A stretch of DNA of 64,000 nucleotides from Escherichia phage kaset, in sequence record PV245935.1, one strand, 5' to 3'. A program made the translations under genes and the position numbers. Of the stretch, positions 6,718 through 59,023 are shown piece by piece. Every line of letters begins with the position of its first letter. Position 1 is the stretch's first letter. The notes under the pieces were generated by a model. It was given only the letters and a program-made list of their open reading frames with translations. It did no database searches and was not told the DNA's origin.

Positions 6718-6731
6718 ATAAGGTGAATGCC

Positions 6732-35449: not shown

Positions 35450-35469
35450 TTTGTTTCCTTAATTAAATA

Positions 35470-35685: not shown

Positions 35686-35688
35686 GAT

Positions 35689-36372
35689 TTATTTCCCAAA
35701 TGGAATATCAGTACCAGACATAAAGCGCCATGCGCCCGTAATTAAGATATGGCGAATGAAGTCAGCAATTACTTGCGGCTCAGTCTCCAATCCATTCATC
35801 AACGCCTTTTTCTGGTATTCAGCAGCATACTCAGGAGTCCAGCCGCGAGTCGCGCAAACAGCATCTTCAATCTGTTTAGACATACCAGTGCCGCGCAACT
35901 TGTTAGGACTAATAGAGAATACCGTGATCCCGTATTTAGGCGTAAGTTCGTGGGCCATCTGCTTACTGATCATAAGCGCAGCGGCCTTGGAAGCATTATA
36001 ACACAAGCTGGACGTCATAGGAATATGCGCAGCGTTGGAAACGATATTGATCACAAAACCTTTGTTGTCGATAAGACTTTTCAGTGTCGCCTGAGTCGTG
36101 TTAACGAAAGAGAAAGCGTTGGTATGCATAACGCGGTTAAATTCTTCGTAGTTGACATCTTCAAACCAGTTGTTGGAGTTTACGCCAGCACAGTTGATCA
36201 AGCCTTCTACATCATATGGGCTTAAAATTTCTTTCATCTGTTTAGCGTCGCGGACGTCATATCCGTATGCTGAATCGATGCCAAGCACGTTATGACCGTA
36301 AGCGCCAAGGGTGTCAAAAATAGATTTACCAAGACCAGAATTGGAACCTGTTACAACAATTACTTTTTTCAT
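35689..36372 (-). CDS. Short-chain dehydrogenase/reductase (SDR) family oxidoreductase
   Basis: Rossmann motif VTGSNSGLG and catalytic YNASKAA (YxxxK). Confidence 0.7.
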   Translation of the reverse strand: MKKVIVVTGSNSGLGKSIFDTLGAYGHNVLGIDSAYGYDVRDAKQMKEILSPYDVEGLINCAGVNSNNWFEDVNYEEFNRVMHTNAFSFVNTTQATLKSLIDNKGFVINIVSNAAHIPMTSSLCYNASKAAALMISKQMAHELTPKYGITVFSISPNKLRGTGMSKQIEDAVCATRGWTPEYAAEYQKKALMNGLETEPQVIADFIRHILITGAWRFMSGTDIPFGK

Positions 36373-36437
36373 TTATTTATCCTTTTTGGACTTCGTTTCG
36401 ATGAGATAAATATAACTCATCGAAACGCACAAGTAAA

Positions 36438-37310
36438 CTATTTATTGAAATTAATATTGTGGGTGTTGACGAGACGTTCACACATGGCGCTGTAAACACC
36501 ATCATCGTGTATAGAGTCTTCGTGCTTCAGGCCGCTGATTGCGAAGCGTGTAAGCTTGACAATCTTAAGCTCGAACAGATGCCACATGTGGTAGTCTTCC
36601 GGCGTTTTCAACGTTACGCCATTAGGGAAAAGCACCTGCATAACCTGGCCAACCATCACGGCGTTATCGCCATAGACAGCGTTGCGCTCACGGAAGGTTG
36701 CCGCCATTGCATCAAGAATATCGGCGGCAGTGGCCGGAGATTGTTCAATTTCCACAGCCTTAGTCTCTTCTTGCCCTGTTGCGCTTGGATCAATTGCTAA
36801 TTGTTGCACCACTTCACCTGCCTTGCAAAGATTAAATGTAAAAGCGATTTTATTTTGAGCAACGGAATTATAATACAATGCTTCATCTTGCATCCGCGCG
36901 AGCACGTCTTGTCGGTCGTCGAATACATTGATGATTCGATAATCGCCGTGCCGCAATGCGTGCGATAGCCATGCAGATTTCATAATAGTTGATGGACGTT
37001 TGTCGCCATAGTCTCTCATCTTGATTGTAAATTCATCAAAAGGAAAAACATTGTCCAGACGTTCAAAAGTCACTTGTCTGTATTTTTCTGGCCTTGCAGT
37101 CCAATATTCAACCGCCTCACCGCGAAGAGATGCCGACTCTACTGCTGATGCAATGTGAGGATAGAACTGATCATAACCAATACCGCTGTGATAGTCATCA
37201 TAGTCTGACAACGGACCTGCCACCTTGATGCGGTCTAAGCGCCAACGGTCATCAAACAGCGTTCCGTCAAGGTCGAATACGTTTAAGATTTCGCTGTTTT
37301 TAATGCTCAT
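36438..37310 (-). CDS. HAD-superfamily hydrolase domain protein with extra C-terminal domain
   Basis: Motif I VFDLDGTLFD (DxDGT); later VFDDRQD. Confidence 0.6.
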   Translation of the reverse strand: MSIKNSEILNVFDLDGTLFDDRWRLDRIKVAGPLSDYDDYHSGIGYDQFYPHIASAVESASLRGEAVEYWTARPEKYRQVTFERLDNVFPFDEFTIKMRDYGDKRPSTIMKSAWLSHALRHGDYRIINVFDDRQDVLARMQDEALYYNSVAQNKIAFTFNLCKAGEVVQQLAIDPSATGQEETKAVEIEQSPATAADILDAMAATFRERNAVYGDNAVMVGQVMQVLFPNGVTLKTPEDYHMWHLFELKIVKLTRFAISGLKHEDSIHDDGVYSAMCERLVNTHNINFNK

Positions 37311-38152
37311 CCTTTTGATACTCCATCTTTAGCGACTGGATTGTTGGTGATTGGCATCGCACTCCAAAACTGGATGCGCAACTCTTCTTGCTGTGCCGTG
37401 GTATCCATCCAATCACGATACCAAGGGCAATGTGCTTTACCGTGACGGGGAAATGCGCACTTACCCATACCGATGCATTGCGGCTGTAGTAAAGGATTAG
37501 CCCAAGGGTGCACCTTGAGGACTTCCGCAACCATTGCACGAAATACTTCTTGATACTCGCCTTGAGTGCGCGTGCACAAGCGGTTTGACGCCATCTGCTG
37601 CAGCGTGCGCAAGTTGAACTTTGCCATGATATGCGTTTGCATATTAGAAGGCAACACGGCACGTGCATCCTGAATCTCTGCGCCAGCCGCGCGAAGTTCT
37701 TGGTATAGGGCGTCAATGGTTGCCATTGCATCATCCCACTTCTCTGCCAGCACACTTCTTTTTTCAGAGTCCCAGTATCCTTCTTCATCCTGGTCGAAAA
37801 AGTCTTTTTTACCAAGATCATCTAAACTATCAAAATCACCATCCCTTTCAAATGCCTTCGGACGAATTGCATCAAACGCAGACGACTCCTGAGCGCGGCT
37901 AGTGCGTTCTTGATATGCGCCTGTGCGTGTGCGCACCATCTGATGGGTCATGTTCTTTGAAACATCAGTGATGTCAAAGATATAGTCCACAAAGTCAAAG
38001 GGCGACTTGATTGTATCAAGCATGTAGCGCCAGTGCTCTTGCTTCTCTGATTCTGTCATCTCAGAGACAGGCTTGCCAGTCATGCGCGTGTTCTTTGTTT
38101 CCAGCAAAAGGTCAAGTGCATCTTGGGTGTATCGAATTAATTCAACTTTCAT
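37307..38152 (-). CDS. ThyX-like flavin-dependent thymidylate synthase homolog (divergent)
   Basis: ARAVLPSNMQTHIMAKFNLRTLQQM resembles ThyX ARxVLPxN...NxRSL block; RHR-like motif present as RTRTGAYQERTSR. Confidence 0.55.
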   Translation of the reverse strand: MKVELIRYTQDALDLLLETKNTRMTGKPVSEMTESEKQEHWRYMLDTIKSPFDFVDYIFDITDVSKNMTHQMVRTRTGAYQERTSRAQESSAFDAIRPKAFERDGDFDSLDDLGKKDFFDQDEEGYWDSEKRSVLAEKWDDAMATIDALYQELRAAGAEIQDARAVLPSNMQTHIMAKFNLRTLQQMASNRLCTRTQGEYQEVFRAMVAEVLKVHPWANPLLQPQCIGMGKCAFPRHGKAHCPWYRDWMDTTAQQEELRIQFWSAMPITNNPVAKDGVSKG

Positions 38153-38166
38153 TTTAATTATTCCTA

Positions 38167-38613
38167 TTAACGGTAATTCACTAATTGCTGATCACCAGAG
38201 AAGGTGCAATGATAAACGAATTGTGCGTTGTAAAGCAACTGAAAACTTTTCTTTGGTTCACTATTAGCACTCATCGATGTGAATACTTCTGCACCGGAAC
38301 GGTTTTCACCAATCAGATTGATAAAGCCGCCAGTTGAACGAGGTTGAACGAAAGTGAAACGTTGCATCCACGGAGTCCGGTTGGCACCTTTACCCGTGAA
38401 TCCTTGAATCTGAATATTCAGACCTTCTTGCTCATTCACACCGATGTAAGTGGTAATCTTCGCACCAGTCGTTGCTGCGGTCTTGCCGTCCATCGCTTCG
38501 CAATCGTAAACAGCGATTGAATCGGAAGTACGGATGGCAGCTTCAGTCGCTTCCATATACATGGTGCCGAGAATAGCAGTTGCGGCAAGCGCGATTCCAG
38601 TGATTCGTTTCAT
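38167..38613 (-). CDS. Secreted protein with signal peptide, hypothetical
   Basis: N-terminus MKRITGIALAATAILGTMYMEA; two Cys residues. Confidence 0.5.
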   Translation of the reverse strand: MKRITGIALAATAILGTMYMEATEAAIRTSDSIAVYDCEAMDGKTAATTGAKITTYIGVNEQEGLNIQIQGFTGKGANRTPWMQRFTFVQPRSTGGFINLIGENRSGAEVFTSMSANSEPKKSFQLLYNAQFVYHCTFSGDQQLVNYR

Positions 38614-38677
38614 TTCGTTTCCTCTATGAGTTCTGCTTCAATGATTAAAGTATACGCCCATTGAAGCAGAAAGCAAA

Positions 38678-39673
38678 TTATTTATTGGCAATATAAGCAA
38701 ATTTTTGATAGTTATTTGCTTTGATGAGTTTTTCAACTTCAACAAGGTCATGAGCGACGTCATCAAGCAAAATGTTGCGCCAGGTAGCGAATCGACCAAC
38801 ACTAAACACGTTCAAATCCATAGTCAGCTGCAGGAGTAGGGCGTGTCGCAAGTCTTTCGGAATGTCGACAATCTTGCCATATTTCTGGTCGACCTTTTCA
38901 ACTTCTTCAAGAGCAATGTCACTCCATGAAAGGCCAAAGGCCGTCAACACTTCGTCGACTTCTGCGCGAAGCTTTATGTCACGGTAACGAGTGATGCCGC
39001 CAGCGGCTTCAACTGCAGCTTCACTTACGCTGACCAAAGGAATTGTTTCAATGATAAGCGTGTCACCAGTAATTGATGCGCGGTAAGTTCTGACTGAGTA
39101 GTCAGGGAAGTAAATTGTTTGATACAACTCACACTTACGTTTAATCTTAAAGCGGTAAACACGAATGTTTGCTTTATCAAATGAGAAATCAAGCTTTTGA
39201 TCAATCCCAGCAAGCTTCAGCATGACTGGCAGCGGCGATGTGTTGATGATTGGCGTCTCGCTATAGCCGCAAAGAGTATCAACCGGAGTATTAAAGAATA
39301 TGCGGTCACCCAGTTTGTCGACAAGCTGATCATAAAAGTCATCAGGCGCAATATAACGCGTTGCAGTTTTAAGCTTCATGATTGAACGGCTGCCAAACTG
39401 ATTGGTGACCTTCATGGAATACATATTGGCAAGGTTAATTGGGCAATGGTCGTGGTAGTAGTTGCCGCGAAAATACACAGCCTTGTCAACTGTCACGGCC
39501 TTAAAGGGGATTCCGGTAATACGGCTTACTTCTTCGCCACGGAAGCGTAGCAACGCCTTGTGCTGTTGCGCCCGTTCCCCTGCTTCGTACACAATAGAGT
39601 TCGGGAAGTGACACGCTGTGATAAGTCCTGCCAGTCCGCCGCCGATAATCATTACAGGTTGTTTCATGTTCAT
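38678..39673 (-). CDS. FAD/NAD(P)-binding oxidoreductase
   Basis: N-terminal dinucleotide-binding motif VMIIGGGLAGL (GxGxxG). Confidence 0.6.
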   Translation of the reverse strand: MNMKQPVMIIGGGLAGLITACHFPNSIVYEAGERAQQHKALLRFRGEEVSRITGIPFKAVTVDKAVYFRGNYYHDHCPINLANMYSMKVTNQFGSRSIMKLKTATRYIAPDDFYDQLVDKLGDRIFFNTPVDTLCGYSETPIINTSPLPVMLKLAGIDQKLDFSFDKANIRVYRFKIKRKCELYQTIYFPDYSVRTYRASITGDTLIIETIPLVSVSEAAVEAAGGITRYRDIKLRAEVDEVLTAFGLSWSDIALEEVEKVDQKYGKIVDIPKDLRHALLLQLTMDLNVFSVGRFATWRNILLDDVAHDLVEVEKLIKANNYQKFAYIANK

Positions 39674-48282: not shown

Positions 48283-48630
48283 ATGGCTCATGTTAAAGAC
48301 GAAGTGCTGTTTGGCGCAGAGATTAAGAAGCGTGTCAGAGAAATGGCAGGAGAAGAAAGAATGAAGCCACTGCGAAAAGGTTTTGATCACATCAATGGCG
48401 TATCCGGCACGAAGGAGATGGGTGTGTTGGTAAAAGACATTCGCGTTGGCGATGTCATGGTCATCGACCGACAAGCGCGAGTCGTTATCCAGGTGCAACC
48501 GAACGATGATGAAGGATGTGTCCTATTGAAGCTGAAGAAGCTTTCATCCAGCCCAGCAAAGGCCGTCATCAAGAAGGTCTGGCCAGAAGGATTACGCAAA
48601 CTCATTCGTCGACCCGTGGAGAATGTGTGA
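48283..48630 (+). CDS. Hypothetical protein
   Basis: ATG 48283 after AGAGG RBS. Confidence 0.5.
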   Translation: MAHVKDEVLFGAEIKKRVREMAGEERMKPLRKGFDHINGVSGTKEMGVLVKDIRVGDVMVIDRQARVVIQVQPNDDEGCVLLKLKKLSSSPAKAVIKKVWPEGLRKLIRRPVENV

Positions 48631-48866
48631 TGGAAGATTATATCAATTCTATGTACATGGCATTCTATGTCGTACAACTTCCCAATGGCGCGGTATTTTA
48701 TGGCGAGTATACCTTTGACGTTCAATATGACGTCTCAGAGCGTACAGTGTTAACAAGGGAGTTGATTGCGGACCTTAAGGACGACATCAAGCGCGTCGCG
48801 CGGCAGCAGTTCAATTTGGATGACACCGTCATCGTTCGAATTACCGGAATAACAGAGGTGCAGTGA
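48630..48866 (+). CDS. Hypothetical small protein
   Basis: Start overlaps upstream stop. Confidence 0.45.
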   Translation: MEDYINSMYMAFYVVQLPNGAVFYGEYTFDVQYDVSERTVLTRELIADLKDDIKRVARQQFNLDDTVIVRITGITEVQ

Positions 48867-49195
48867 TGACCCGTGATCAGATACTCGCCGCGCATGAGCG
48901 TGAAAAGGCGAAAGAAATCTGGAAAAGACACAACGCCTTTGCCGAGTCCTATTACTTCTTAAAGAGGTGCATAAAAGAGAATGTGAGGATGGGTGATACC
49001 GTTTTGACATTTAACATTTTGTCTTATGGTAATAAGCTTAATGCAATATATGCTTGTCGACTAGCCAACATGAAGTTCGATAGAGGAGGTGACGGAGAGT
49101 TGACCATCTATCGATTCTCTCACCGGACGGGTGATACAAAGATAACAAGGACACGTGAACAGATAGAGATTGACTTACTTCACTATGTAAAATGA
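48863..49195 (+). CDS. Hypothetical protein
   Basis: ATGA overlap; followed by terminator-promoter cassette. Confidence 0.5.
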   Translation: MMTRDQILAAHEREKAKEIWKRHNAFAESYYFLKRCIKENVRMGDTVLTFNILSYGNKLNAIYACRLANMKFDRGGDGELTIYRFSHRTGDTKITRTREQIEIDLLHYVK

Positions 49196-49200
49196 ATATC

Positions 49201-49249
49201 AAAAAGGTGAGCTAAATGCTTGCCTTTTCTTTTATCAATACTTATACTC
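49201..49249 (+). promoter_or_regulatory. Terminator-promoter cassette copy 1
   Basis: Hairpin AAAAAGGTGAGC-TAAAT-GCTTGCCTTTT with U-tract; -35 TTGCCT (49220-49225) overlapping 3' arm; -10 TATACT (49244-49249). Confidence 0.5.
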
Positions 49250-49280
49250 TTTTCATCAAGACTAACAAGCGAGGTGAATT

Positions 49281-49598
49281 ATGATTTACTTAGGCATCGA
49301 CCAGGAACAAGATGAGCAGTTAGGAAGCGTGTTAAACGTAGAATTAAACACAGCTGTACACGTCAAGCCTTGGCCAGAGGCGCACCCCGACGTAGTTGTA
49401 CCCGTTGCACCTTGGACGCGTTACGTTGCCATTGACGATAACGGCCTTGTCCATTGTTACTCAGAAAAGCCGACATACTTCGAAAAGTATCACCAATGGC
49501 TTATGACTGGTTGGGCAAAGGTGCGCTGTTGCGGCGAAGTCGGCCTGGAAGGATGGGGCTTCAAGGCTAGTGAATCATGCGTCGAGGTGCAATTATGA
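49281..49598 (+). CDS. Hypothetical protein
   Basis: RBS GAGGTG before ATG. Confidence 0.5.
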   Translation: MIYLGIDQEQDEQLGSVLNVELNTAVHVKPWPEAHPDVVVPVAPWTRYVAIDDNGLVHCYSEKPTYFEKYHQWLMTGWAKVRCCGEVGLEGWGFKASESCVEVQL

Positions 49599-49813
49599 AT
49601 GCCGCGCTGGGTAAGCTGTCTTTCAACAAACGCAATGAGCTGCGCATGGTATCGCTCTTTCAACAAACGCATTTATCACTAATCAAGATTGCAAACAAGG
49701 CCTACTCTCTAAATTGTCCTGAAGAAGAATGGAAAGAATTGAATGAGCGTCGTAAACAATTACAAAAGGCTGCATTCAAGCTGCAGCAATATGCCATGGA
49801 GTATGCAAAATGA
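49595..49813 (+). CDS. Hypothetical small protein
   Basis: ATG 49595 after GAGGTG; ATGA overlap. Confidence 0.45.
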   Translation: MNAALGKLSFNKRNELRMVSLFQQTHLSLIKIANKAYSLNCPEEEWKELNERRKQLQKAAFKLQQYAMEYAK

Positions 49814-50202
49814 GAATGAAACGTTGCCCGTATTGCCACGATGTGATGCATCTTCCACATGAAGAGTTTGTGCAGCACATGACTCATTGTGATAAGAATC
49901 CTAAAAGCGAGAGTCAACTTGAAGAAAGAATGTTTCTGGTTTCGTTCAAGTATTCAGCTTATGACGCGCAACTGGCTTACGGTGCGAGCGGTGCACCAAA
50001 TGCTATTTACCGACCAACAACATTGAGAAGCGACATAGACTCAATACAGCTTGTGGCCTGGATTAACGTTAAGGAAGGAATCACGGCGCACTTTATCGCG
50101 CGCATCCAATCCGAGATTCTACGAATCAAGCGCGAATACAACCGTGACATTACTGAAGTGAAGGTGCTGACCATCACACCGATGAATAAGGAGTTGCTGT
50201 GA
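49810..50202 (+). CDS. Zn-finger-like protein, hypothetical
   Basis: CPYCHD ... HMTHC motif. Confidence 0.5.
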   Translation: MRMKRCPYCHDVMHLPHEEFVQHMTHCDKNPKSESQLEERMFLVSFKYSAYDAQLAYGASGAPNAIYRPTTLRSDIDSIQLVAWINVKEGITAHFIARIQSEILRIKREYNRDITEVKVLTITPMNKELL

Positions 50203-50459
50203 ACAAGGGTCCGATGACTAAGCTGGCCGTTGCCGCGCGGAAGCTTCGACAAGCTGTTAATGGGTCGCGGCCCGTGGTGTTAACACTCGACGACGCGAAG
50301 GCGCTGGTAGAGCTGCTCGACGAGCACAACCGACGAAAGAATCTGGAGAACACATTACGCTGGCGCGTCACCCCAGCCGGGCGGGAGAGCGAGAAGAAAG
50401 CTTACTTGCGACGCAAACTAAGGTCAGTCGGCCTTCACGAAGAGGCGAAGAATATTTAA
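50199..50459 (+). CDS. Hypothetical basic protein
   Basis: GTG start after AAGGAG RBS. Confidence 0.45.
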   Translation: MNKGPMTKLAVAARKLRQAVNGSRPVVLTLDDAKALVELLDEHNRRKNLENTLRWRVTPAGRESEKKAYLRRKLRSVGLHEEAKNI

Positions 50460-50462
50460 TTC

Positions 50463-50509
50463 AAAAAGGTGAGCTAAATGCTTGCCTTTTTATTTGCCTG
50501 TATTATACT
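50463..50509 (+). promoter_or_regulatory. Terminator-promoter cassette copy 2
   Basis: Same hairpin AAAAAGGTGAGCTAAATGCTTGCCTTTTT; TTGCCT then -10 TATACT (50504-50509). Confidence 0.5.
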
Positions 50510-50537
50510 TAGTTCATCAAGCAAAGGAGAATTGATT

Positions 50538-50834
50538 ATGAGTTACGACGAAAGGTTTGGCAGAAGCGGGCTGTTTCATGATGCTGTATACAAAGACAGC
50601 CAAGATGTCGTCTGCGTATTGAGAAATGATTCTTACGGCGTGCTCAAGCCGTTTAAGGTCGGTGAGACATACGAATTGTTTCACGGATGGATTACGCAAC
50701 CAAACAACCTTCCTGATATGGAAGTCTGGTGGATAGAATACAAGGGCCAGGCGCATCGTTGCAAGGTCGTAGAAATACGCGGCGTGACACACTATCAATC
50801 TATTATCAGCGGATTTGTTTTTAAGGAGATTTGA
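50538..50834 (+). CDS. Hypothetical protein
   Basis: ATG 50538 after AAAGGAG RBS; track N-terminal extension runs through terminator and is rejected. Confidence 0.5.
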   Translation: MSYDERFGRSGLFHDAVYKDSQDVVCVLRNDSYGVLKPFKVGETYELFHGWITQPNNLPDMEVWWIEYKGQAHRCKVVEIRGVTHYQSIISGFVFKEI

Positions 50835-50836
50835 TT

Positions 50837-51139
50837 ATGAGTACCGAAGCGATGAAGAAAAAGGTTTTGAACGCTTTGCAAGAAGCCGTGAACTGTGGTG
50901 CCATTAAAGTATTTCATGAATTGCAATTTGGTGAAGGTGACGCGGTAGAATTTTACAGCAATAAAGACGGTCTTGCGACAATTTTCTTTTCAGAGCAAAG
51001 GGTTGGTGAGTGCATCCTGCAAATTGGTGGATATAGGCTTGTCGTCGACGATGCATTTATCACCTGCGCTGATGGCCTTAATCCGATGTTGACGTTTGAG
51101 CGTCGCGGCATCCGTGTTGCAACATTTGGAGGACAGTGA
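50837..51139 (+). CDS. Hypothetical protein
   Basis: ATG after AAGGAG RBS. Confidence 0.5.
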   Translation: MSTEAMKKKVLNALQEAVNCGAIKVFHELQFGEGDAVEFYSNKDGLATIFFSEQRVGECILQIGGYRLVVDDAFITCADGLNPMLTFERRGIRVATFGGQ

Positions 51140-51324
51140 TGAGCACCGAAGTACACAACGCATCAGCCTTGGTAAGCTTTTACCGTAACAAAGGCGTGTC
51201 GCTCGTTAAAACGCCGCAAGGGATGTTGTTCTTTGGCACGCGATTCCTTAAAGCATCGGAGCGTGAAACGCTGTCCAAGTTCGACCAGAAAACATTACAC
51301 GCAGTTTGGAGAAGACAACAATGA
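51139..51324 (+). CDS. Hypothetical small protein
   Basis: ATG overlapping upstream stop. Confidence 0.45.
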   Translation: MSTEVHNASALVSFYRNKGVSLVKTPQGMLFFGTRFLKASERETLSKFDQKTLHAVWRRQQ

Positions 51325-51614
51325 GACTAAGCCTAGCGCAAATTCAAACATTATACCGAATGGAAGACGGCACGCCATACATGCTGCGCGGCGACCGCAA
51401 GAAGGCTTATGAAAAGCGGCCATCACTATTTCACGACATCAATGCGCCATCAATACCTGTCTTATTCCGGCTTGGTCTTGTTGATTGGGCGGTGCCAGGA
51501 GAGAAAGACCCGACGCGTTATTCATCCGTGGTGATGACAAAAGCAGGTCGCGCGGCATTAAAAGAAATTAAAGAGAATATGGCTGGAGGTAAATATTATG
51601 ACATCAAATCTTAA
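51321..51614 (+). CDS. Hypothetical protein
   Basis: ATGA overlap. Confidence 0.45.
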   Translation: MRLSLAQIQTLYRMEDGTPYMLRGDRKKAYEKRPSLFHDINAPSIPVLFRLGLVDWAVPGEKDPTRYSSVVMTKAGRAALKEIKENMAGGKYYDIKS

Positions 51615-51780
51615 GGCCCGTTTATTATTCATCAATCCGCATGTGCCGTATAAGATTAGCAAGCGCACCTGGCTTAATATTTACAACCGCAGCGGCGACC
51701 GTTGCTTGTACAAGGCGAAGCGACGCAATAAAAGATACTTTCGTGTAGCGCAACCAAGTTTTCTCGGAGTAAAGAAATGA
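51598..51780 (+). CDS. Hypothetical small basic protein
   Basis: Track ORF overlapping neighbours; uncertain. Confidence 0.35.
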   Translation: MTSNLKARLLFINPHVPYKISKRTWLNIYNRSGDRCLYKAKRRNKRYFRVAQPSFLGVKK

Positions 51781-52286
51781 AAATCGAACAACTCGAAGCA
51801 GTACTGGAAATGGCTGTAAAGGCAGGCGCAATCAAAAGCTATCGTCGCGAGAAGTCTGAGGATTCTGCACACTTTTGTCGCAACTTCTATATCGTCGGCA
51901 ACCTTAACGACCACTACACCATCGAGTGGTATATTAACATAATGACCCTTAAGTCGCGCAGCATGGAGCTTTGGTGTGATGACATCTGTCTTTCGAATAC
52001 TCACCCAAGCTATGATGTCGCCCTGGCGTTCTATCACGGAAGCCGTCAACCTGTCGCCCACATCGGTGAGAAGCATGAGCAATTGAAGGAGAAACCAACG
52101 GCAGCTGACGGCTGGGTTGATTGGGACGGCGGCGACTTGAATCCAGTACCAGGAAAGAAGGTGCTTTACATTCTGCGCGACGGTGCTACAGCTACAAAGC
52201 CGATTGCATCAAATGAATTGCGCTGGGAAAAGATTGAGCGCCACCGCGATGGCGATGTCATCAAATACAAAGTCGTGGAGGAATAA
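51777..52286 (+). CDS. Hypothetical protein sharing a C-terminal domain with 53170..53838
   Basis: C-terminus WVDWDGGDLNPVPGKKV...YKVVEE parallels WTAWFGGENPVPGKMV...YRVVKEG. Confidence 0.5.
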   Translation: MKIEQLEAVLEMAVKAGAIKSYRREKSEDSAHFCRNFYIVGNLNDHYTIEWYINIMTLKSRSMELWCDDICLSNTHPSYDVALAFYHGSRQPVAHIGEKHEQLKEKPTAADGWVDWDGGDLNPVPGKKVLYILRDGATATKPIASNELRWEKIERHRDGDVIKYKVVEE

Positions 52287-52627
52287 TGGAAGAGCAAGAA
52301 GGCCGTGAGCTAACGTTCGACGAGCAAATGAAAGAGCTTCAGCGCACATCGCCGCTGCGCGGTAAGGTTGTTGACATTGAGGCGAGCGAATCCAATCTCA
52401 CCAAGTGGCGAATCAAGTGCACCAGCACAAGCAAGGATATGTTAAGCTTCAAAGTCGGTCAGACTTATTTGCTTTATGAGGCAAAAGGACTTATTATTGA
52501 TGGAAGGCAAATTGTCTTCACGGTAGTCAACGGCATGCGTTGGTTCGTGAAGCGTGATGTAGAGGGTCGTGACATGTTTGTCGCAGGCTTCCCAGAAACA
52601 AGATTCAAATTGGAGAAGGTTAAATGA
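52286..52627 (+). CDS. Hypothetical protein
   Basis: ATG overlapping upstream stop. Confidence 0.5.
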   Translation: MEEQEGRELTFDEQMKELQRTSPLRGKVVDIEASESNLTKWRIKCTSTSKDMLSFKVGQTYLLYEAKGLIIDGRQIVFTVVNGMRWFVKRDVEGRDMFVAGFPETRFKLEKVK

Positions 52628-52953
52628 AATTGAAATGGTACGTGGACCCTGAGCCAACAGGCCAATACAGGTCATTCCAACGTCGCGGCTGGCCGACTTG
52701 TTACAGCGGTAATCCCGATAAAGAAGATTGCGAGCTGCTTGCCGCTATCGTAAGCCTCGACCGTCACGGCTATGAAGGCCACTACGCGAGAGCAACCAAC
52801 CTTCGGCTTAAGGTGCGCATCCATTTCAAGGTCGCAGGCGAGGACCGCACCGGACTCTCCAAGGAAGAGTTCAGCAGCATCGCTGAAGCAAAGGCATGGC
52901 TCAAGGCGTTCTATAAGAACAACCCTAAATTCTATCCAACTAAGGATGCATAA
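52624..52953 (+). CDS. Hypothetical protein
   Basis: ATGA overlap. Confidence 0.5.
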   Translation: MKLKWYVDPEPTGQYRSFQRRGWPTCYSGNPDKEDCELLAAIVSLDRHGYEGHYARATNLRLKVRIHFKVAGEDRTGLSKEEFSSIAEAKAWLKAFYKNNPKFYPTKDA

Positions 52954-53186
52954 TGACCGATAAACAATACGCAGTCGGGCAACGTGACATCGAGCAACTC
53001 GACGAGGGCGGCTATTATACGCGCCACATCTATGCCATGACGCATGAAGGACTTTACAGCAAGTCGGACATCGCCGCTGAACTGGCCCATCGTGACTTGC
53101 AAATTGACGTGTTGCGTCTCGCGCTTGAGAAGCAAACGCAAATCGCTATTGAAATTTTGGAGAAGTTAAATGATACAACGTTATGA
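52953..53186 (+). CDS. Hypothetical small protein
   Basis: ATG overlapping upstream stop. Confidence 0.45.
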   Translation: MTDKQYAVGQRDIEQLDEGGYYTRHIYAMTHEGLYSKSDIAAELAHRDLQIDVLRLALEKQTQIAIEILEKLNDTTL

Positions 53187-54328: not shown

Positions 54329-54600
54329 GCCTGTTGTTTGTGAGTTTTTATTATCGGATAAAGCGATTGATTTGTGTAAATCTATTAGAGGATGGTGGGC
54401 CGTGAGGATTGTGACGTGAATTTTGTGTCTTGAATATGTGTTCGAATTTGGAAGAATATTGTACTGTGGTGCTGTGGGATTGGAGAGGGAATCACTAGGT
54501 TTTGGGGCGTGTACCGTGGTGTGTGGGCCTGTAGGCTGCGCCGTGTCTGGGATTGCCGCTTGAAATTAAAAAGGAGATATAGTTAGCTGGCTAACCTTAC

Positions 54601-54890
54601 GTATAGAATTTAAGCGTATAATGACGTAAGATTTGGACCTATCCGTAGTTCACTCCACACACTTCTATGGTGCGCCGCGACTGGGTTCAATGGTACATCT
54701 TACGGATGATACGGATGATACGCGTCGCCGCTATACTTTATACAACTTTGAAAAAAACAATTAACTCCATTTTGAATTAATTTAAATTAATTTTTTTCTA
54801 CATCCTCATACTTATACTAAAATTATATTTATACGTATTATCCGTAAGATATAAATAAAAACAAAGACTTGCGGCAATACGGATGATACG
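54601..54890. repeat. Iteron-like module B, homologous to 2540-2835
   Basis: Shared GCGTATAATGACGTA; inverted TACGGATGA x2 at 54689-54706; CGCTATACTTTATA; AT-rich core 54721-54850; further copies at 54826-54834 and 54864-54887. Confidence 0.7.
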
Positions 54891-55047
54891 CCATGATACG
54901 CTTCAGCCAGCCAGCAGCGGCTAAGTCATTGATTTGCATAACAAGCGGCGAAAGGGATGGATTTCTTTTATACGTATCAAACAGTACACCACGCACCACG
55001 GTCCATTATTCATTCAGCACTATGATTTATGTACTTTTACAGCCAAT

Positions 55048-55094
55048 TTGAACATCAATCTGCACTTGAATATAATGTTCATTCATTGTATAAT
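55048..55094 (+). promoter_or_regulatory. Tandem sigma70-like promoter candidates upstream of 55129 gene
   Basis: TTGAAC-17 bp-TATAAT (55071-55076) and TGTATAAT (55086-55093). Confidence 0.4.
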
Positions 55095-55104
55095 TCACAC
55101 TATT

Positions 55105-56584
55105 AATTTGCACTATGGGATTTGCACTATGAGTCAAGATTATGTAGCAATGCCTGAAGACTTTGAAGACCCGCGATTTGCAGAGCATAATCAGGCATTA
55201 TTCGATGAGTTCATTGACCTTGTTATTCAGGGCCATGACATGCGCGCAGCTTTTGCACTAGTATTTGGCATGGAGGTTGCGACCGATAACTACACTGGCC
55301 AGCGAATCCTGTGCACGCAACGCAATCCGTACTACAAGATGCGCTACAAAAAGCGTATGGAAGAGATGCCATTGAAGGAATTGTGGAGCGTAAAGAGTTC
55401 CATCCACAATTTAGTGAAGCTTGTGCGTGATCCAGAAGTCGCGGCATCAGCCAAGCTTAATGCCATTCGTGAACTGAATATCATCTACGGCATCACGATG
55501 ATTGATGAAAACGGCAATAGTAAAATGGGCCGTTCCATGGACGATTTCTACAAGGATTTTGGAGAGGCAGCCAAAGAGGGTGAGCAATTCTCCCGCCACT
55601 AGCCAATTTGCACTATAAAACGGCCCTAGAACACATTTTCTCCACTTCTAGGGCCATCGGTAATACGACGGTGAATGCTGCAACCATAAACGCGTTAGAA
55701 AGTGTATTATTATAAGTCATCTTTTAGTCACTTTACGTAACAATTTACGACCTTCCGCCGTCCAGTCGAACGACTCCACCAGCAGATTTGCACTATAACC
55801 TAAGACGATGCGCCCTTTCTCGTTATCGACCCGCCAACAAGTCTCGAATAGCATTCGATTTGCACTATTAACTATCACCGCAACGCGCGTTGGGTAAGCG
55901 CAATTTGCACTATGGTCGTAAAGGGATAAGGTGCGACCACTTCCGATGGACAACGTAGCGATGAGAATGAGTGTGTTCATAAGCCACCAATTTGCACTAT
56001 GAAAAGCGACCCCGAAGGGCCGCCATTCGATTAGATGATCTGGAAGGTGTAGGATTTGTTGCCGAACTCAAAGTTCAAGCGCCCAGCTTCCTTAAGCTTC
56101 ATACGGAAGCGAATGTGCTTGCTATCCGGTAAGCCCAGCGCGGCGAACGCTACGCGGACCGATTTGAACTCGCCTACACCCTCGACCATAACGCCGTTGC
56201 GCGTAAGACGCTTTTGCGCTACTTCCTTGTTGTCCCAACTTTTTGCAATACCTTCGCTATTCGAACGGCGATGGGAAGGAGTTCCATTTTGCACTACGCA
56301 ATTTGCACTATCGTTTAGGCCGCTCTTAACGAAGGCTTCATACTCTTCGTCGGTCATCGCGTCGAGTTCTTCCTGGGTCGGCTCGGCCTTTTTAACGACC
56401 GCACGCGCCTTATGCGTTTTTACATCGCTGGACACTTCCTCGCGCGGCTTCGCGTCGGGGATGGGCGATTCGTTGGACGGCTCATCGAGCGCGTTTAAGG
56501 ACTCGATTAACGCGATTACGCGAGTCTCGGCGGTACGGCGGTCCGCGAACTTTTTAATCGGCTTCGAACCGGAATTTGCATTAT
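55105..56584 (+). repeat. Dispersed same-strand array of ATTTGCACTAT motifs
   Basis: Copies at 55105, 55120, 55605, 55786, 55858, 55902, 55989, 56300; variants at 56286 and 56573; related AATTTGCAGTACACT at 58462 and 58559. Confidence 0.7.
55129..55602 (+). CDS. Hypothetical protein (candidate regulator; ATTTGCACTAT motifs overlap its start)
   Basis: ATG 55129; track N-terminal extension runs through promoter region and is rejected. Confidence 0.5.
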   Translation: MSQDYVAMPEDFEDPRFAEHNQALFDEFIDLVIQGHDMRAAFALVFGMEVATDNYTGQRILCTQRNPYYKMRYKKRMEEMPLKELWSVKSSIHNLVKLVRDPEVAASAKLNAIRELNIIYGITMIDENGNSKMGRSMDDFYKDFGEAAKEGEQFSRH

Positions 56585-56657
56585 AAAATGCAACGAGGTC
56601 GGCGGTCTTAGTTGCGATAACGTCGCCGCTAGTCGAGAAGCGATTTAAGCTAACCAT
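56031..56657 (-). CDS. Hypothetical protein in CpG-rich block
   Basis: 208 aa ORF; CG-rich codon usage distinct from rest of window. Confidence 0.5.
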   Translation of the reverse strand: MVSLNRFSTSGDVIATKTADLVAFYNANSGSKPIKKFADRRTAETRVIALIESLNALDEPSNESPIPDAKPREEVSSDVKTHKARAVVKKAEPTQEELDAMTDEEYEAFVKSGLNDSANCVVQNGTPSHRRSNSEGIAKSWDNKEVAQKRLTRNGVMVEGVGEFKSVRVAFAALGLPDSKHIRFRMKLKEAGRLNFEFGNKSYTFQII

Positions 56658-56737
56658 AATAAACTCCTATTTGTTAGGGCGCTAGGCGCGAAAGAATTTT
56701 ATTAAAGCGCCGCGCACGACGCTCTAAAAATCCTCTC

Positions 56738-57022
56738 TTACGCTTCGACGAGGGAGAAGGTCTCAAATTCTTCTTCGCCCATAACGAGTAAAATATTACC
56801 GATTTCGACCGCTTCGAAGAAGTATCCGTTAACGTTTACTTCGAAGGCTTCGCGGTCCGATTCCGGTAACGCCGCGTAAAGTTTAAAAGCTTCGGCGACC
56901 GTTACCCCACCCGCTTCGATAGTTTGGTCTACGTTCGCGGCGTAGACTTCGGATAAATTTTGTTTTACGCCGTAGTTCTCGACGATAGCGTTACGGATAG
57001 AAGAAACGTTAAGAATAGCCAT
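56738..57022 (-). CDS. Small protein, member of paralog family (with 57655..57945)
   Basis: Shared pattern SEVYAANVDQTIE / ESVYLSNVDAIIE and VNGYF..EIG / INGFV..EIG. Confidence 0.55.
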   Translation of the reverse strand: MAILNVSSIRNAIVENYGVKQNLSEVYAANVDQTIEAGGVTVAEAFKLYAALPESDREAFEVNVNGYFFEAVEIGNILLVMGEEEFETFSLVEA

Positions 57023-57245
57023 TTTAAACTCCTAGTTGGGAGAGGCGTTAACGACCTATTCGTTAACTCATCCCGTCCCGATATGAGTACATTATAATAT
57101 AGTGTAGAAAAAAGTAAAGCACTTTTTCGATAAAAATGCGATAAATTATTTTATCTTTTTTCTTTACTTCTTCGTACACTCGCGTATACTTGTTTATATC
57201 GAGACGGGCGATGGCCTTTCTTCTACTATCATCGGGAGCTTTATT

Positions 57246-57548
57246 ATGACTACTTTAATCTCTTCCATCCTTACTTACGACGAAGACCGTTTAACCGTTC
57301 GCTCTCTTATCGCCGCCGTTAACGCGGAACTAGAATCTAGCGCCATTAAGGTCCGCGCTTTCGTCTTCGCTAGTCTTTCCTTCGACGAAATTAAATACGC
57401 CGAACGTAGCGCCATCCGCTTCGCGAAGACCGACGACGAAGCCGTTACCCTTATCGAGACGGTTACGCCGCGCGGCGAAGCGTTAATTATCGTCGAGTAT
57501 ATCGACGTAGAAGGCGATAAATCTTATAAATATTTTATCGCAGAATAA
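57246..57548 (+). CDS. Small protein, possible distant paralog; flanked by 16-bp inverted repeats
   Basis: Preceded by promoter-like module; inverted repeats GTAAAGCACTTTTTCG (57114-57129) and CGAAAAAGTGCTTTAC (57549-57564). Confidence 0.5.
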   Translation: MTTLISSILTYDEDRLTVRSLIAAVNAELESSAIKVRAFVFASLSFDEIKYAERSAIRFAKTDDEAVTLIETVTPRGEALIIVEYIDVEGDKSYKYFIAE

Positions 57549-57654
57549 CGAAAAAGTGCTTTACTTCTTCGTACACTAAGACTATACTTATTTATATCGA
57601 GAGGGGAGAGGAAGCGAATAGGTCGCTACCCTCCCGACTAACTAGGAGAATATT

Positions 57655-57945
57655 ATGATCACTTTATCCGCTATCCGTTCCGCTCGCGTCGAAACTTCCG
57701 AAAACTCTAACATATTTGGCGAAACCTTAGAGAGCGTTTATCTCTCTAACGTCGACGCGATTATCGAGTCTATTTATGAGCCGATCAACTTCCTCGACCT
57801 TTACAAGTATCGCGACGAGGACATCGTATCCTGCCGCGTAACGATTAACGGCTTCGTCTATACGATTACCGAAATCGGCGGCGAATATATCGCTGTACCG
57901 CAACTCGGCGGAGAAGTGACTTATTTTAAAATCGTCTCCTTATAA
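57655..57945 (+). CDS. Small protein, member of paralog family (with 56738..57022)
   Basis: RBS AGGAGA; preceded by duplicated promoter-like module. Confidence 0.55.
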   Translation: MITLSAIRSARVETSENSNIFGETLESVYLSNVDAIIESIYEPINFLDLYKYRDEDIVSCRVTINGFVYTITEIGGEYIAVPQLGGEVTYFKIVSL

Positions 57946-57963
57946 TACCCTTCCGTTACTAAT

Positions 57964-57990
57964 AGGCCGCGCTTAGTCGCGGCTTTTCTT
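57964..57990 (+). terminator. Rho-independent terminator candidate
   Basis: GGCCGCG-CTTAGT-CGCGGC hairpin followed by TTTTCTTCG. Confidence 0.5.
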
Positions 57991-58642
57991 CGTCCCTATC
58001 TCGATGCGCTTCTCCGCGAAAACTCCTTTATTCTTCCCTTCGTCGTCTCATAATCTTCTTCGAGATGCTCCTTAGTTCGCATAACGGGTATTACGTTAAA
58101 TGGAGAACATCGCGTAAGTCCTTGTTTTATATAGACACCTATATCGGACCGTTAAGGCGGGTCGCGTAAGTCGTTGTTTTATAAAGGCGCAAAACTTTCC
58201 CTTCGTTCCGAACTAAAACGAGAAATATGCGGACCCTTCGCCCGAAAATAGTACGCATACGAAATTACCGACATCTAAAATAATCCCCGCCTATATTATC
58301 CTACACGCAATCATTAGCCTTCGAATCATTATGCTTCATATTATTATGCATCGAATCATTCGCTTTCGAATTGTAACGCTGGAAACTGTAACGGCGATTG
58401 ATTATTGCGTTCGTGTGGTTTTTAGGGCATGGGTCTTTTGGTGCGTTTTGGTACTTGATGAAATTTGCAGTACACTAATCAAAATATGACACATTTGGTC
58501 CACTAACTTTTCAAAGAAAAAGTCCTAGACAGTACCGTACTATTTTGTGCCCACAGTAAATTTGCAGTACACTCCTGCGCGGCAGGCAAAATAAAGGGCC
58601 GCCACAGCGACCCACGATTCACGGTTAAATCAGCAACACCCA

Positions 58643-59023
58643 CTATTCACTCTTATGGGCATCACCAAAGCCATCCGCAATCTGGCTGATCAATGATTCA
58701 ATGGACACAGTTTTACCAATTGATCGAGCGGTAATAGCAAGCATATTATCAATCAAACCATGATTGGCTGCATATGGTCCAGGTTGTGAATCATCTTCAG
58801 AACAACCAAAAAGCTGATCGCGAAGACTTTCAAGAGAACGCTCAATATTTTCCAGCTTCTCTTCTAAATCGGATTGGCGACGTAAAACCCATGTTAAGTC
58901 TCGGTTGCCGACTTCCAACCCATCAGAATCGCAAGCTGGAACGTCAATTTTGATACTGCCACCAAAGGCCATTCCGCTGCCTTTAGTATACGCGTGGTGA
59001 ATAGAATCATTTTTATTCGACAT
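58643..59023 (-). CDS. Hypothetical protein
   Basis: ATG 59023 preceded by AAAGGT; upstream in-frame ATG at 59038 lacks RBS. Confidence 0.45.
   Translation of the reverse strand: MSNKNDSIHHAYTKGSGMAFGGSIKIDVPACDSDGLEVGNRDLTWVLRRQSDLEEKLENIERSLESLRDQLFGCSEDDSQPGPYAANHGLIDNMLAITARSIGKTVSIESLISQIADGFGDAHKSE

What the first reader, a model, noticed from the sequence alone, without database searches (positions are those of the whole stretch)
57114..57605. Gene 57246..57548 flanked by perfect 16-bp inverted repeats and duplicated promoter-like modules
GTAAAGCACTTTTTCG (57114-57129) and its exact reverse complement (57549-57564) bracket one small gene and its upstream region. The block CTTTACTTCTTCGTACACT...TATACTT...TTTATATCGAGA(C/G)GGG occurs upstream of both 57246 and 57655, with TTTACT / TATACT spaced like a sigma70 promoter. 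This looks like a duplicated promoter-gene cassette, possibly mobile or recombination-prone.
Basis: seen in the sequence. Interest (0 to 1): 0.45.

Follow-up and report, generated by a model that had tools for sequence, protein, structure and literature searches.

The report
Repeated early promoters in phage terminal repeat
The "inverted repeat" is the shared upstream part of two back-to-back copies of one host-type early promoter in the terminal repeat of an E. coli Wifcevirus phage, which is ordinary, but the same 2 kb is almost completely free of the dinucleotides CA and TG, which is not.

Summary
The perfect inverted repeat is 18 bp (57112-57129 / 57549-57566), and the promoter-like block occurs three times, not twice.

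The window is a Wifcevirus (E. coli myophage). The finding lies inside its ~3.7-kb direct terminal repeat.

The repeat arms are the A-rich upstream stretch plus the -35 hexamer (TTTACT) of two oppositely oriented copies of one sigma70-type promoter-leader module. P_left (minus strand) drives gp005 and gp004. P_right drives gp007. P_mid drives the bracketed gene gp006.

gp005 and gp007 are paralogues, and their leaders share a hairpin with an identical loop. The bracketed segment is never inverted in 20 related loci, and gp006 is always present. Neighbouring cassettes do come and go: gp005 is lost or replaced, extra ORFs appear, there is a tandem duplication, and gene order is swapped in a distant lineage. 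"Duplicated, recombination-prone promoter-gene cassettes" is therefore partly right; "mobile element" is not. The closest analogues are the PeSL cassettes of T4-like phages and the T5 and T7 early regions.

The finding also sits in a conserved ~1.9-kb island where CA/TG is depleted to 0.1-0.4 of expectation (0.03 in a distant relative). The depletion shapes codons and amino-acid content. I could not explain it.

The parts
54769..58438 (.). Direct terminal repeat (DTR) of the phage genome; context of everything below
   Evidence: Phage Mansfield DTR 1-3673 (annotated as predicted by PhageTerm) aligns to window 54769 onward at 96.7% identity. A terminal repeat of about 3.7 kb is reported for WFC and WFH (PMC6563267).
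57112..57129 (.). Left arm of the perfect 18-bp inverted repeat; on the minus strand it is the A-rich UP-like stretch plus the -35 hexamer of P_left
57549..57566 (.). Right arm of the perfect 18-bp inverted repeat; it is the UP-like stretch (CGAAAAAGTGC) plus the -35 TTTACT of P_right, and it starts directly after the gp006 stop codon
57091..57132 (-). P_left: sigma70-type promoter, -35 TTTACT (57118..57113), 16-nt spacer, -10 TATAAT (..57091)
   Evidence: conserved in relatives
57023..57084 (-). Leader of gp005, starting with the conserved ATATCG(G/A)GA. It holds an 8-bp hairpin at 57047-57067 with loop AAUAGG, then SD UAGGAG
56738..57022 (-). gp005, 94 aa, acidic (pI 4.05), paralogue of gp007; absent or replaced by another allele in some relatives
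56031..56657 (-). gp004, 208 aa (phrog_4730, function unknown). It is second in the leftward operon here and fused directly to the P_left leader in ECML-117-type phages
57162..57190 (+). P_mid: -35 TTTACT (57163-57168), 16-nt spacer, -10 TATACT (57185-57190). It lies back to back with P_left across a shared A+T-rich 44-bp stretch
   Evidence: (I6)
57196..57245 (+). Leader of gp006. It has the same initial transcribed sequence ATATCGAGA but a different, weaker 5' hairpin, then SD GGGAG
57246..57548 (+). gp006, 100 aa, acidic (pI 4.57), an ORFan confined to Wifcevirus-like phages. This is the gene 'bracketed' by the inverted repeat and it is present in all 21 loci surveyed
57559..57588 (+). P_right core: -35 TTTACT (57560-57565), 17-nt spacer, -10 TATACT (57583-57588; TATAAT in most relatives)
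57594..57654 (+). Leader of gp007: hairpin at 57610-57630 with the same loop CGAAUAGGUCG as the gp005 leader, then SD UAGGAG
57655..57945 (+). gp007, 96 aa, acidic (pI 4.23), paralogue of gp005
57964..57995 (+). Intrinsic terminator closing the rightward early unit
   Evidence: annotated at the same place in Mansfield and WFC
56651..56673 (.). RBS/start-codon repeat of gp004. Together with 57016-57038 it forms a direct repeat flanking gp005. ECML-117-type genomes have one hybrid copy and lack gp005
   Evidence: (D14)
57016..57038 (.). RBS/start-codon repeat of gp005 (partner of 56651-56673)
   Evidence: (D14)
56450..58300 (.). CA/TG-depleted island that contains all the promoter modules and gp005-gp007. 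It has a graded left edge inside gp004 and a right edge just inside the DTR end

Best explanation
The region is the immediate-early control region of a Wifcevirus phage and lies in its direct terminal repeat. It holds three copies of one promoter-leader module. Each module has an A/T-rich UP-like stretch, a -35 TTTACT, a conserved 16-17-nt spacer (TCTTCGTACACT...), a -10 TATAAT or TATACT, a conserved initial transcribed sequence ATATCG(A/G)GA, a 5'-proximal hairpin and a strong Shine-Dalgarno. P_left fires leftward into gp005-gp004. P_mid and P_right fire rightward into gp006 and gp007, ending at the terminator at 57964. The 18-bp 'inverted repeat' is a by-product: P_left and P_right are the two most similar copies, they point in opposite directions, and they share the CGAAAAAGTGCTTTACTT (UP-like plus -35) part. 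gp006, with its own promoter copy, happens to lie between them. Inferred mechanism: host sigma70 RNA polymerase recognises the modules as soon as the terminal repeat enters the cell and produces small acidic early proteins of unknown function, probably for host take-over or anti-defence. The 5' hairpins probably stabilise the mRNAs and/or bind a regulator. Because the same short regulatory sequences (promoter, leader, RBS) precede each gene, they also serve as recombination joints through which early-gene cassettes are duplicated, lost and swapped between related phages. Shown here: the sequence anatomy, its conservation, the paralogy, and the structural variants. Inferred: promoter activity, timing, the role of the hairpin, and the recombination mechanism.
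For: Identity and location: 92-96% identity to 28 Wifcevirus genomes, inside the DTR. Three aligned modules, all scored as sigma70-like, each 50-65 nt upstream of an ATG with an SD. The pattern occurs only here in the 64-kb window, apart from one coding-region near-match. Conservation: the modules are present in the same order and orientation in 19 of 21 loci. The 19-nt core is identical in a distant lineage (L085; one mismatch in L087) whose proteins are only 27-49% identical. Paralogy of gp005 and gp007. Shared leader hairpin: 97% of cells paired, two pairs with compensatory changes (UA/GC/CG and GC/AU/GU), and a loop that is invariant except for one A-to-G change in one of 13 leaders. Cassette variants whose joints lie in shared regulatory sequence: gp005 loss through the TAGGAGTTTA RBS repeat; a 303-nt tandem duplication that includes P_right in F13; an extra ORF just upstream of P_right in AV128. 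Further variants: gp005 allele replacement; gp007-like then gp006-like order in L085. Patchwise identity between P_mid of Mansfield and P_right of the window.
Against: No transcription start sites or expression data exist for any Wifcevirus; nothing was found in the literature searched. The -35 TTTACT matches the consensus at only 4 of 6 positions. The strong conservation of the spacer and of the initial transcribed sequence is more than a plain sigma70 promoter needs, so an additional factor may be involved. The hairpin covariation rests on few independent events, mainly the P_left/P_right difference plus one lineage. In one relative (L073) the whole P_left-P_mid block is replaced by canonical TTGACT promoters, so this module is not indispensable.
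Confidence: 0.85

Rival explanations
1. The inverted repeats are the ends of a mobile or invertible cassette (IS/MITE-like element or recombinase-driven invertible switch) that carries gp006 and its promoter.
For: A perfect 18-bp inverted repeat brackets one gene plus its promoter, and it is far beyond chance.
Against: There are no other copies in the genome. There is no flanking direct duplication; the flanks continue as an imperfect repeat because they are promoter sequence. The six neighbouring proteins scanned matched no Pfam family and only two PHROG families of unknown function, so no recombinase or transposase was seen. The orientation is identical in all loci that carry the modules, and gp006 is present in 21 of 21 loci. 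In IMG/VR the promoter-core pattern appears in more than one copy only in Wifcevirus contigs.
Confidence: 0.03
2. The repeated modules are primarily recombination 'linkers' (PeSL-like mobile regulatory cassettes) whose main evolutionary role is to shuffle early ORFan genes. Promoter function is real, but the repetition is maintained because it promotes exchange. This complements the best explanation rather than excluding it.
For: Indels and replacements are concentrated here among genomes that are otherwise 92-96% identical. Some joints fall in shared RBS or promoter sequence. Gene order is swapped in L085. Patch exchange is seen between promoter copies. The precedent is PeSLs in T4-like phages (PMC2839356, PMC4122927).
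Against: There are only three copies, against ~50 PeSLs per T4-like genome. Several joints are not at the modules: the gp007 deletion in L073 joins ...AATAA to the sequence after the gp007 stop. No mini-circle or recombination data exist. The repeats are short (19-27 nt).
Confidence: 0.45
3. The conserved non-hexamer parts of the module (AAAAAGTGC upstream, spacer TTCGTACACT, ATATCGAGA at +1, hairpin loop AAUAGG) are binding sites for a phage-encoded regulator. That regulator would switch the three promoters or their mRNAs off, or on, together. The inverted repeat would then reflect operator-like sites.
For: The spacer and the initial transcribed sequence are identical in lineages whose proteins have diverged to 27-49% identity. 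The loop stays the same while the stems covary. CA/TG dinucleotides survive in these motifs inside an otherwise CA/TG-poor region.
Against: No DNA- or RNA-binding protein was identified. The 70-aa protein labelled 'transcriptional regulator' in ECML-117 is absent from this window. Conservation could equally reflect promoter strength or escape kinetics.
Confidence: 0.2
4. The two arms pair in an RNA or in DNA, as a long-range hairpin, terminator or cruciform, to regulate gp006.
For: Perfect 18-nt complementarity.
Against: The left arm lies upstream of the predicted starts of both P_left and P_mid, so no predicted transcript contains both arms. The arms are 419 nt apart. Each arm aligns base for base with promoter sequence.
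Confidence: 0.03

Closest known systems
PeSL (promoter-early stem-loop) regulatory cassettes of T4-like phages (Arbiol et al. 2010, PMC2839356; Comeau et al. 2014, PMC4122927)
   Same: Repeated sigma70-like early promoters with an A/T-rich upstream region and an associated stem-loop. They end in an SD and start codon, sit in front of small ORFan early genes in the most plastic part of the genome, and mark indels and replacements between close relatives.
   Different: Only 3 copies instead of ~50. The phage lineage is unrelated. The stem-loop lies inside the leader (after the start site), has no U-tract and is not an obvious terminator. The location is a terminal repeat. No mini-circle evidence exists.
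Pre-early (first-step-transfer) region in the terminal repeat of phage T5; host-takeover module in the SPO1 terminal redundancy (the SPO1 comparison is from my own knowledge)
   Same: A cluster of small early genes with host-RNA-polymerase promoters in divergent units, located in a long direct terminal repeat that necessarily enters the cell first (T5 annotation). Wifcevirus, like T5, resists restriction without a known protection mechanism (PMC11990801 section 16; PMC8594841).
   Different: No sequence homology was detected: no Pfam match, and among PHROGs only an unknown-function family for gp004. The repeat is 3.7 kb rather than 10 kb. Two-step transfer is not known for Wifcevirus. The T5 repeat shows no CA/TG depletion.
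T7 early promoters A1, A2 and A3 with gene 0.3 (Ocr)
   Same: Three similar strong host-type promoters near the entering genome end, followed by structured leaders and a small, very acidic first gene product (for the T7 map; Ocr properties from my own knowledge).
   Different: The T7 promoters are tandem and feed one transcript; here each feeds its own gene and one is divergent. No similarity of gp005, gp006 or gp007 to Ocr was found.
Invertible promoter or gene segments (fimS, Hin/Gin/Cin) and IS/MITE terminal inverted repeats
   Same: Short inverted repeats flank a promoter-containing segment.
   Different: No recombinase, no second orientation in any relative, no target duplication, and the repeat is itself promoter sequence. 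Membership was tested and failed.

Membership tests
sigma70-dependent (host RNA polymerase) promoter | -35 and -10 hexamers close to TTGACA / TATAAT with 16-18 nt spacing | tested here: met
   TTTACT-16-TATAAT (P_left, 10/12), TTTACT-16-TATACT (P_mid, 9/12), TTTACT-17-TATACT (P_right, 9/12; TATAAT in most relatives)
sigma70-dependent (host RNA polymerase) promoter | Position upstream of a gene with leader and SD; conservation among relatives | tested here: met
sigma70-dependent (host RNA polymerase) promoter | Transcription start mapped, or activity shown with E. coli holoenzyme | not testable with these tools
   No transcript data for Wifcevirus were found in the literature searched
PeSL cassettes of T4-like phages | Early sigma70-like promoter with A/T-rich upstream region, ending in the SD and ATG of an ORFan | tested here: met
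   definition from PMC2839356
PeSL cassettes of T4-like phages | Stem-loop acting as terminator or attenuator for upstream transcription | tested here: inconclusive
   A covarying hairpin exists, but it lies in the transcribed leader and has no U-tract. The scan found no terminator between gp006 and P_right.
PeSL cassettes of T4-like phages | Many copies, with indels between close relatives bounded by the motif | tested here: inconclusive
   Only 3 copies. Some joints lie in the module or its RBS and others do not.
PeSL cassettes of T4-like phages | Formation of mini-circles by recombination between neighbouring motifs | not testable with these tools
   Needs PCR or long reads on lysates
Invertible DNA segment (site-specific inversion switch) | Both orientations found in populations or relatives | tested here: not met
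   Same order and orientation in all 19 loci that carry the modules
Invertible DNA segment (site-specific inversion switch) | Adjacent serine or tyrosine recombinase | tested here: not met
   No Pfam family match for any of the six neighbouring proteins, and only two PHROG families of unknown function; the relatives' annotations list none
IS / MITE / transposon | Terminal inverted repeats plus target-site duplication, a transposase, or multiple genomic copies | tested here: not met
   The inverted repeat is present but has no direct repeat at its flanks, no transposase and no other copy in the window
T5-type pre-early (FST) region | Early genes with host-type promoters inside a long direct terminal repeat | tested here: met
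T5-type pre-early (FST) region | Homologues of A1, A2 or dmp; two-step DNA transfer with an injection stop signal | tested here: not met
   No family hits for gp003-gp007 other than an unknown-function PHROG. Two-step transfer itself cannot be tested here.

The most novel reading that the evidence does not exclude
The three promoter modules are the control elements of a 'CA/TG-free' immediate-early expression island. Over ~1.9 kb at the inner end of the terminal repeat, the CA:TG base-pair step has been purged from promoters, leaders, coding sequence and terminator. Synonymous codons are chosen to avoid it, and the proteins almost lack Gln, His, Cys, Trp and internal Met. The purge is conserved, and nearly absolute, in a lineage whose orthologues are only 27-49% identical. 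That implies strong position-specific selection on DNA or RNA sequence by something acting at CA/TG. Candidates are a host defence or nuclease met by the first-entering DNA or its transcripts, or the phage's own, still unknown, DNA modification or nuclease whose target must be absent from the region transcribed first. I found no description of such an evasion strategy, but the literature check for it was a single keyword search. It may connect to the unexplained restriction resistance of Wifcevirus.
Probability: 0.45. Interest if true: 0.8.

Novelty: new member of a known kind. Interest (0 to 1): 0.45.

Why it matters
As flagged, the finding matters little. It adds one more example of repeated early promoter cassettes that phages use to express, and shuffle, small take-over genes. 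It also gives a ready map of probable immediate-early promoters for a poorly studied phage genus that is reported to replicate unusually fast and to resist restriction with no known protection mechanism (PMC11990801).

The compositional island around it matters more. Near-total removal of one base-pair step from 1-2 kb, strong enough to remove five amino acids from the encoded proteins and conserved across divergent lineages, points to a strong sequence-specific pressure on the first DNA or RNA made in infection. Identifying what reads CA/TG could reveal a new defence or counter-defence principle. It would also give rules for recoding early genes in engineered phages.

Tried and rejected
Searches that gave nothing useful:
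- Rfam scan of 54500-59000 at permissive E-values: only two chance-level hits.
- Pfam and PHROGs for gp003-gp007 and the terS-like gene: nothing informative for gp005, gp006 or gp007.
- AlphaFold2 models of gp006 and gp007 had low confidence (pLDDT 63-64). Foldseek against PDB and BFVD gave no significant matches except the Wifcevirus orthologue itself.
- Profile-profile comparison of gp006 with the gp005/gp007 family: unrelated.
- Scan of IMG/VR for the promoter core: only Wifcevirus contigs had multiple copies; the other ~55 loci were single chance matches.
- IMG/VR scans for the distant homologues P0038 and P0042 found nothing. Their contigs were recovered by exact look-up instead.

Leads judged to be chance or too weak:
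- The near-match to the promoter core at 1068-1086 (-) lies in coding-looking sequence without a -10.
- The exhaustive profile search hit Big_13 Ig-like repeats in giant proteins. This is a weak, repeat-inflated similarity to the 'VxVxVNGxxY' strands and is not a family assignment.

Explanations for the CA/TG island that were rejected:
- Simple foreign origin. The left edge is a gradient inside gp004, and the island is conserved in a divergent lineage.
- A general property of first-entering phage DNA. The T5 terminal repeat, the T7 early region, the whole PB1 genome and 508 kb of unrelated viral contigs never fall below 0.63.
- Translational optimisation. CTG is avoided and TTA is preferred.

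Left open:
- I could not find the EcoCFT_II recognition sequence in the held texts. The idea that resistance or sensitivity to type III systems tracks sites in the island therefore remains untested.

Full report
**1. What the window is**

The 2.4 kb around the finding is 92-96% identical to 28 Wifcevirus genomes, which are E. coli/Shigella myophages such as WFC, WFH, ECML-117 and Mansfield. Position 1 of phage Mansfield aligns to window 54769. Its direct terminal repeat (1-3673, annotated as predicted by PhageTerm) therefore spans window 54769 to about 58438. A terminal repeat of about 3.7 kb was also reported for WFC and WFH (PMC6563267). The finding lies in the inner half of this repeat.

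**2. Check of the observation**

- The perfect repeat is in fact 18 bp (57112-57129 / 57549-57566), and it continues imperfectly to 33 nt.
- Perfect inverted repeats of >=16 bp within 1 kb exist at only one other locus in the window. Markov simulations give 0.03 per sequence.
- The direct repeat upstream of both genes is also real: a 19-nt identical core plus a 27-nt block at 89%.

**3. Anatomy**

Aligning the upstream regions of the three neighbouring genes shows one module in three copies. The module consists of:
- an A/T-rich stretch;
- a -35 TTTACT;
- a conserved spacer;
- a -10 TATAAT or TATACT;
- a conserved ATATCG(A/G)GA where transcription should start;
- a 5' hairpin;
- an SD and the ATG.

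All three copies pass a sigma70 consensus scan.

| Copy | Strand | Drives |
|---|---|---|
| P_left | minus | gp005 (57022..56738), then gp004 (56657..56031) |
| P_mid | plus | gp006 (57246-57548) |
| P_right | plus | gp007 (57655-57945), followed by a terminator at 57964 |

P_left and P_right are the most alike. Both carry CGAAAAAGTGC directly upstream of TTTACT. Because they face opposite ways, this shared piece reads as an inverted repeat, and gp006 with its own promoter lies between them. The left arm lies upstream of every predicted start site, so no predicted transcript contains both arms. An RNA-pairing role is therefore unlikely.

**4. The genes**

- gp005 and gp007 are paralogues (32% identity, E 8e-6; alignment).
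- gp006 is unrelated to them by BLASTP and by profile comparison.
- All three are small and acidic, with pI 4.05-4.57.
- All three are found only in Wifcevirus-like contigs.
- They have no Pfam or PHROG assignment.
- They gave low-confidence models without structural neighbours.
- An exhaustive profile search found two distant small homologues of gp007 (about 35% identity). It also gave weak, repeat-inflated matches to Big_13 Ig-like repeats.

**5. The leader hairpin**

The gp005 and gp007 leaders share an 8-bp stem. Its loop, CGAAUAGGUCG, is the same in 12 of 13 leaders; one has A changed to G. Across 13 distinct leader sequences, 97% of cells are paired. Two pairs change on both sides (UA/GC/CG and GC/AU/GU), and slid controls collapse.

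The evidence is modest because the number of independent events is small. Its position near the 5' end, with the SD left free, fits an mRNA-stabilising 5' hairpin. The near-invariant loop also allows a protein-binding role. No Rfam family matches.

**6. Relatives: is it a mobile or recombining cassette?**

I surveyed 21 loci, counting the window itself.
- The three modules appear in the same order and orientation in the 19 loci that carry them. The segment is never inverted.
- gp006 is present in all 21 loci.
- The neighbours of gp006 vary:
  - gp005 is absent in ECML-117, RCIP0319 and vB_Eco4M-7. In ECML-117 and RCIP0319 the P_left leader is joined to the gp004 ATG through the shared RBS TAGGAGTTTA; vB_Eco4M-7's minus-strand copy fell below the 4-mismatch cut-off and was not examined.
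  - gp005 is replaced by a 103/104-aa allele in WFC and five contigs (L077, L079, L080, L082, L084).
  - AV128 has an extra 50-aa ORF just before P_right.
  - F13 has a 303-nt tandem duplication of the gp006 3' half plus P_right.
  - A 70-aa gene follows gp007 in several phages but not in this window.
  - In one contig the whole P_left-P_mid block is replaced by a normal-composition cassette with a 193-aa gene and canonical promoters, and P_right-gp007 is deleted.
- In a more distant lineage (L085) the order is gp007-like then gp006-like.
- Small patches seem to have moved between promoter copies. The -10/+1 patch of the window's P_right is identical to that of Mansfield's P_mid.

This behaviour matches the PeSL cassettes of T4-like phages (PMC2839356, PMC4122927). 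There are fewer copies here, and the hairpin is not an evident terminator. The "mobile element bounded by inverted repeats" reading is not.

**7. Conservation of the promoter**

In L085 and L087 the orthologues of gp004, gp006 and gp007 are only 49%, 27% and about 35% identical. Even so, the 19-nt promoter core is identical in L085 and has one mismatch in L087. The TATACTT...TTATATCGAAAG part is also kept in L085. This argues for strong selection on the whole module, spacer included. A plain sigma70 promoter does not need that much, so a regulator-binding rival stays open.

**8. The unexpected part: a CA/TG-free island**

*Size of the effect in the window*
- The finding sits in the core of a ~1.9-kb stretch (about 56450-58300).
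- CA and TG are at 0.1-0.4 of expectation there. The window mean is 1.16 with sd 0.21, and there is no other such place in 64 kb.
- CG (observed/expected about 2.2) and TA are correspondingly enriched.

*Effect on codons and proteins*
- gp006 has 5 CA/TG dinucleotides, one of them in its ATG. Recoding the same protein with genome-wide codon usage gives 35.0 +/- 4.2.
- gp005 has 6 against 33.8, and gp007 has 12 against 33.9.
- The control gene gp003, just outside the island, has 30 against 34.5.
- Codons TCA, ACA and CCA are unused, and CTG and TTG are nearly so.
- Gln, His, Cys, Trp and Met make up 2.8% of gp005-gp007 against 10.6% genome-wide.
- Even the promoters use TTTACT rather than TTGACA.

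*Conservation and specificity*
- The island is present in all relatives examined.
- It is more extreme in the distant lineage. L085 positions 6001-7100 have observed/expected of 0.03-0.09, and two genes carry exactly one CA/TG each, the start codon.
- It is absent from the T5 terminal repeat, the T7 early region, the Pbunavirus PB1 genome and 508 kb of unrelated viral contigs. The minimum there is 0.63.
- The left edge is a gradient inside gp004. The right edge lies just inside the end of the terminal repeat.

*What this rules out*
- Recent foreign origin.
- Translational selection.
- A generic "leading DNA" effect.

*What could explain it*

I cannot explain the island. The candidates, all inferred, are:
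- (a) evasion of a host factor that acts on CA/TG-containing sequence in the first-entering DNA or its transcripts;
- (b) avoidance of the target of the phage's own, unknown, DNA modification or nuclease in the region that host polymerase must read first;
- (c) removal of every start codon and of TTGACA-type -35 or extended -10 sequence on both strands.

*Possibly related published data*

[quoted passage not shown] EcoP1's site, AGACC, contains no CA/TG. It occurs six times in both orientations in 56031-58441. EcoRI, EcoRV, EcoAI-type, CAGCAG, CAGAG and CACAG sites do not occur there at all. This is suggestive only. The expected counts are small, and the EcoCFT_II site could not be retrieved.

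**9. Verdict**

As flagged, the feature is a real but ordinary piece of phage regulatory architecture. It is a new member of a known kind: repeated early promoter cassettes in a terminal repeat, behaving like PeSLs. The inverted repeat is a by-product of promoter orientation. The interest score is raised above "ordinary" only because the same coordinates lie in a robust, conserved and unexplained CA/TG-free island, which deserves its own follow-up.

Noticed in passing
window 56450-58300 (graded from ~56100; ends ~58300-58400); also L085 5400-7300, L086, L087 1800-3500: An island almost free of CA and TG on both strands: observed/expected 0.1-0.4 here and 0.03-0.09 in a distant relative, against a genome mean of 1.16. 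CG and TA are enriched. Synonymous codons and amino-acid content (Q, H, C, W, M nearly absent) are bent to it. It is absent from T5, T7, PB1 and 508 kb of other viral contigs. The cause is unknown.
   Followed up: partly
window 55105-58569 (+ strand): 55105, 55119, 55605, 55785, 55857, 55902, 55989, 56286, 56300, 56573, 58462, 58559: Twelve same-strand copies of (A/G)ATTTGCA(C/G)TAT are confined to the terminal repeat and its right edge. They lie around the terS-like gene and flank the CA/TG-free island. Only one further match exists in the other 60 kb (2.3 expected in total). The motif is also present in the distant contig L085 (about 5163 and 5201). They may be terminase/packaging or other protein-binding sites.
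   Followed up: partly
window 2540-2840: A non-coding stretch with many direct and inverted copies of ATCCGTATC/GATACGGAT around an extremely A+T-rich core. It is the only other place in the window with perfect inverted repeats >=16 bp. It looks like an iteron-type replication origin or a regulatory array.
   Followed up: no
window 58110-58186 and 58309-58368: Two 25-nt direct repeats (TCGCGTAAGTC(C/G)TTGTTTTATA(T/A)AG, 52 nt apart) and three copies of AATCATT(A/C)GC(C/T)TTCG lie in the non-coding 450 nt between the early terminator and the end of the terminal repeat. Similar AATCATTAGC / AATTATT repeats sit at the same place in L085 (7230-7470).
   Followed up: no
window 57547-57559: The only EcoKI site (AAC N6 GTGC) in 56031-58441 lies in the right arm of the inverted repeat, that is, in the UP-like/-35 part of P_right. 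Six EcoP1 sites (AGACC) occur in the same interval, in both orientations. No EcoRI, EcoRV, EcoAI-type, CAGCAG, CAGAG or CACAG sites occur there.
   Followed up: partly
window 57139-57147: CGATAAATT lies between the back-to-back P_left and P_mid. From memory (not checked in a paper here), it matches 9 of 10 positions of the H-NS high-affinity motif tCGATAAATT.
   Followed up: no
window ~34898-39667 (minus-strand genes; mapped from Mansfield 48355-53083): A cluster annotated in phage Mansfield as glyoxalase-family protein, short-chain dehydrogenase/reductase, HAD phosphatase, ThyX and a UDP-galactopyranose-mutase-like protein, with a MazG-like gene further along. It could be a nucleotide or DNA-modification pathway, which is relevant to the unexplained restriction resistance of the genus.
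   Followed up: no
L008 (phage F13) 4561-4882; L073 (ERR11172834 contig) 1906-3100: Structural variants in relatives. F13 has a 303-nt tandem duplication made of the 3' half of gp006 plus P_right. One metagenomic Wifcevirus has the divergent promoter block and gp005 replaced by a normal-composition cassette (193-aa gene, TTGACT-type promoters), and it has lost P_right-gp007.
   Followed up: partly
window 1068-1086 (-): CATTACTGCTTCGTACACT matches the promoter core with 2 mismatches, but it lies in coding-looking sequence without a -10. Probably chance.
   Followed up: partly
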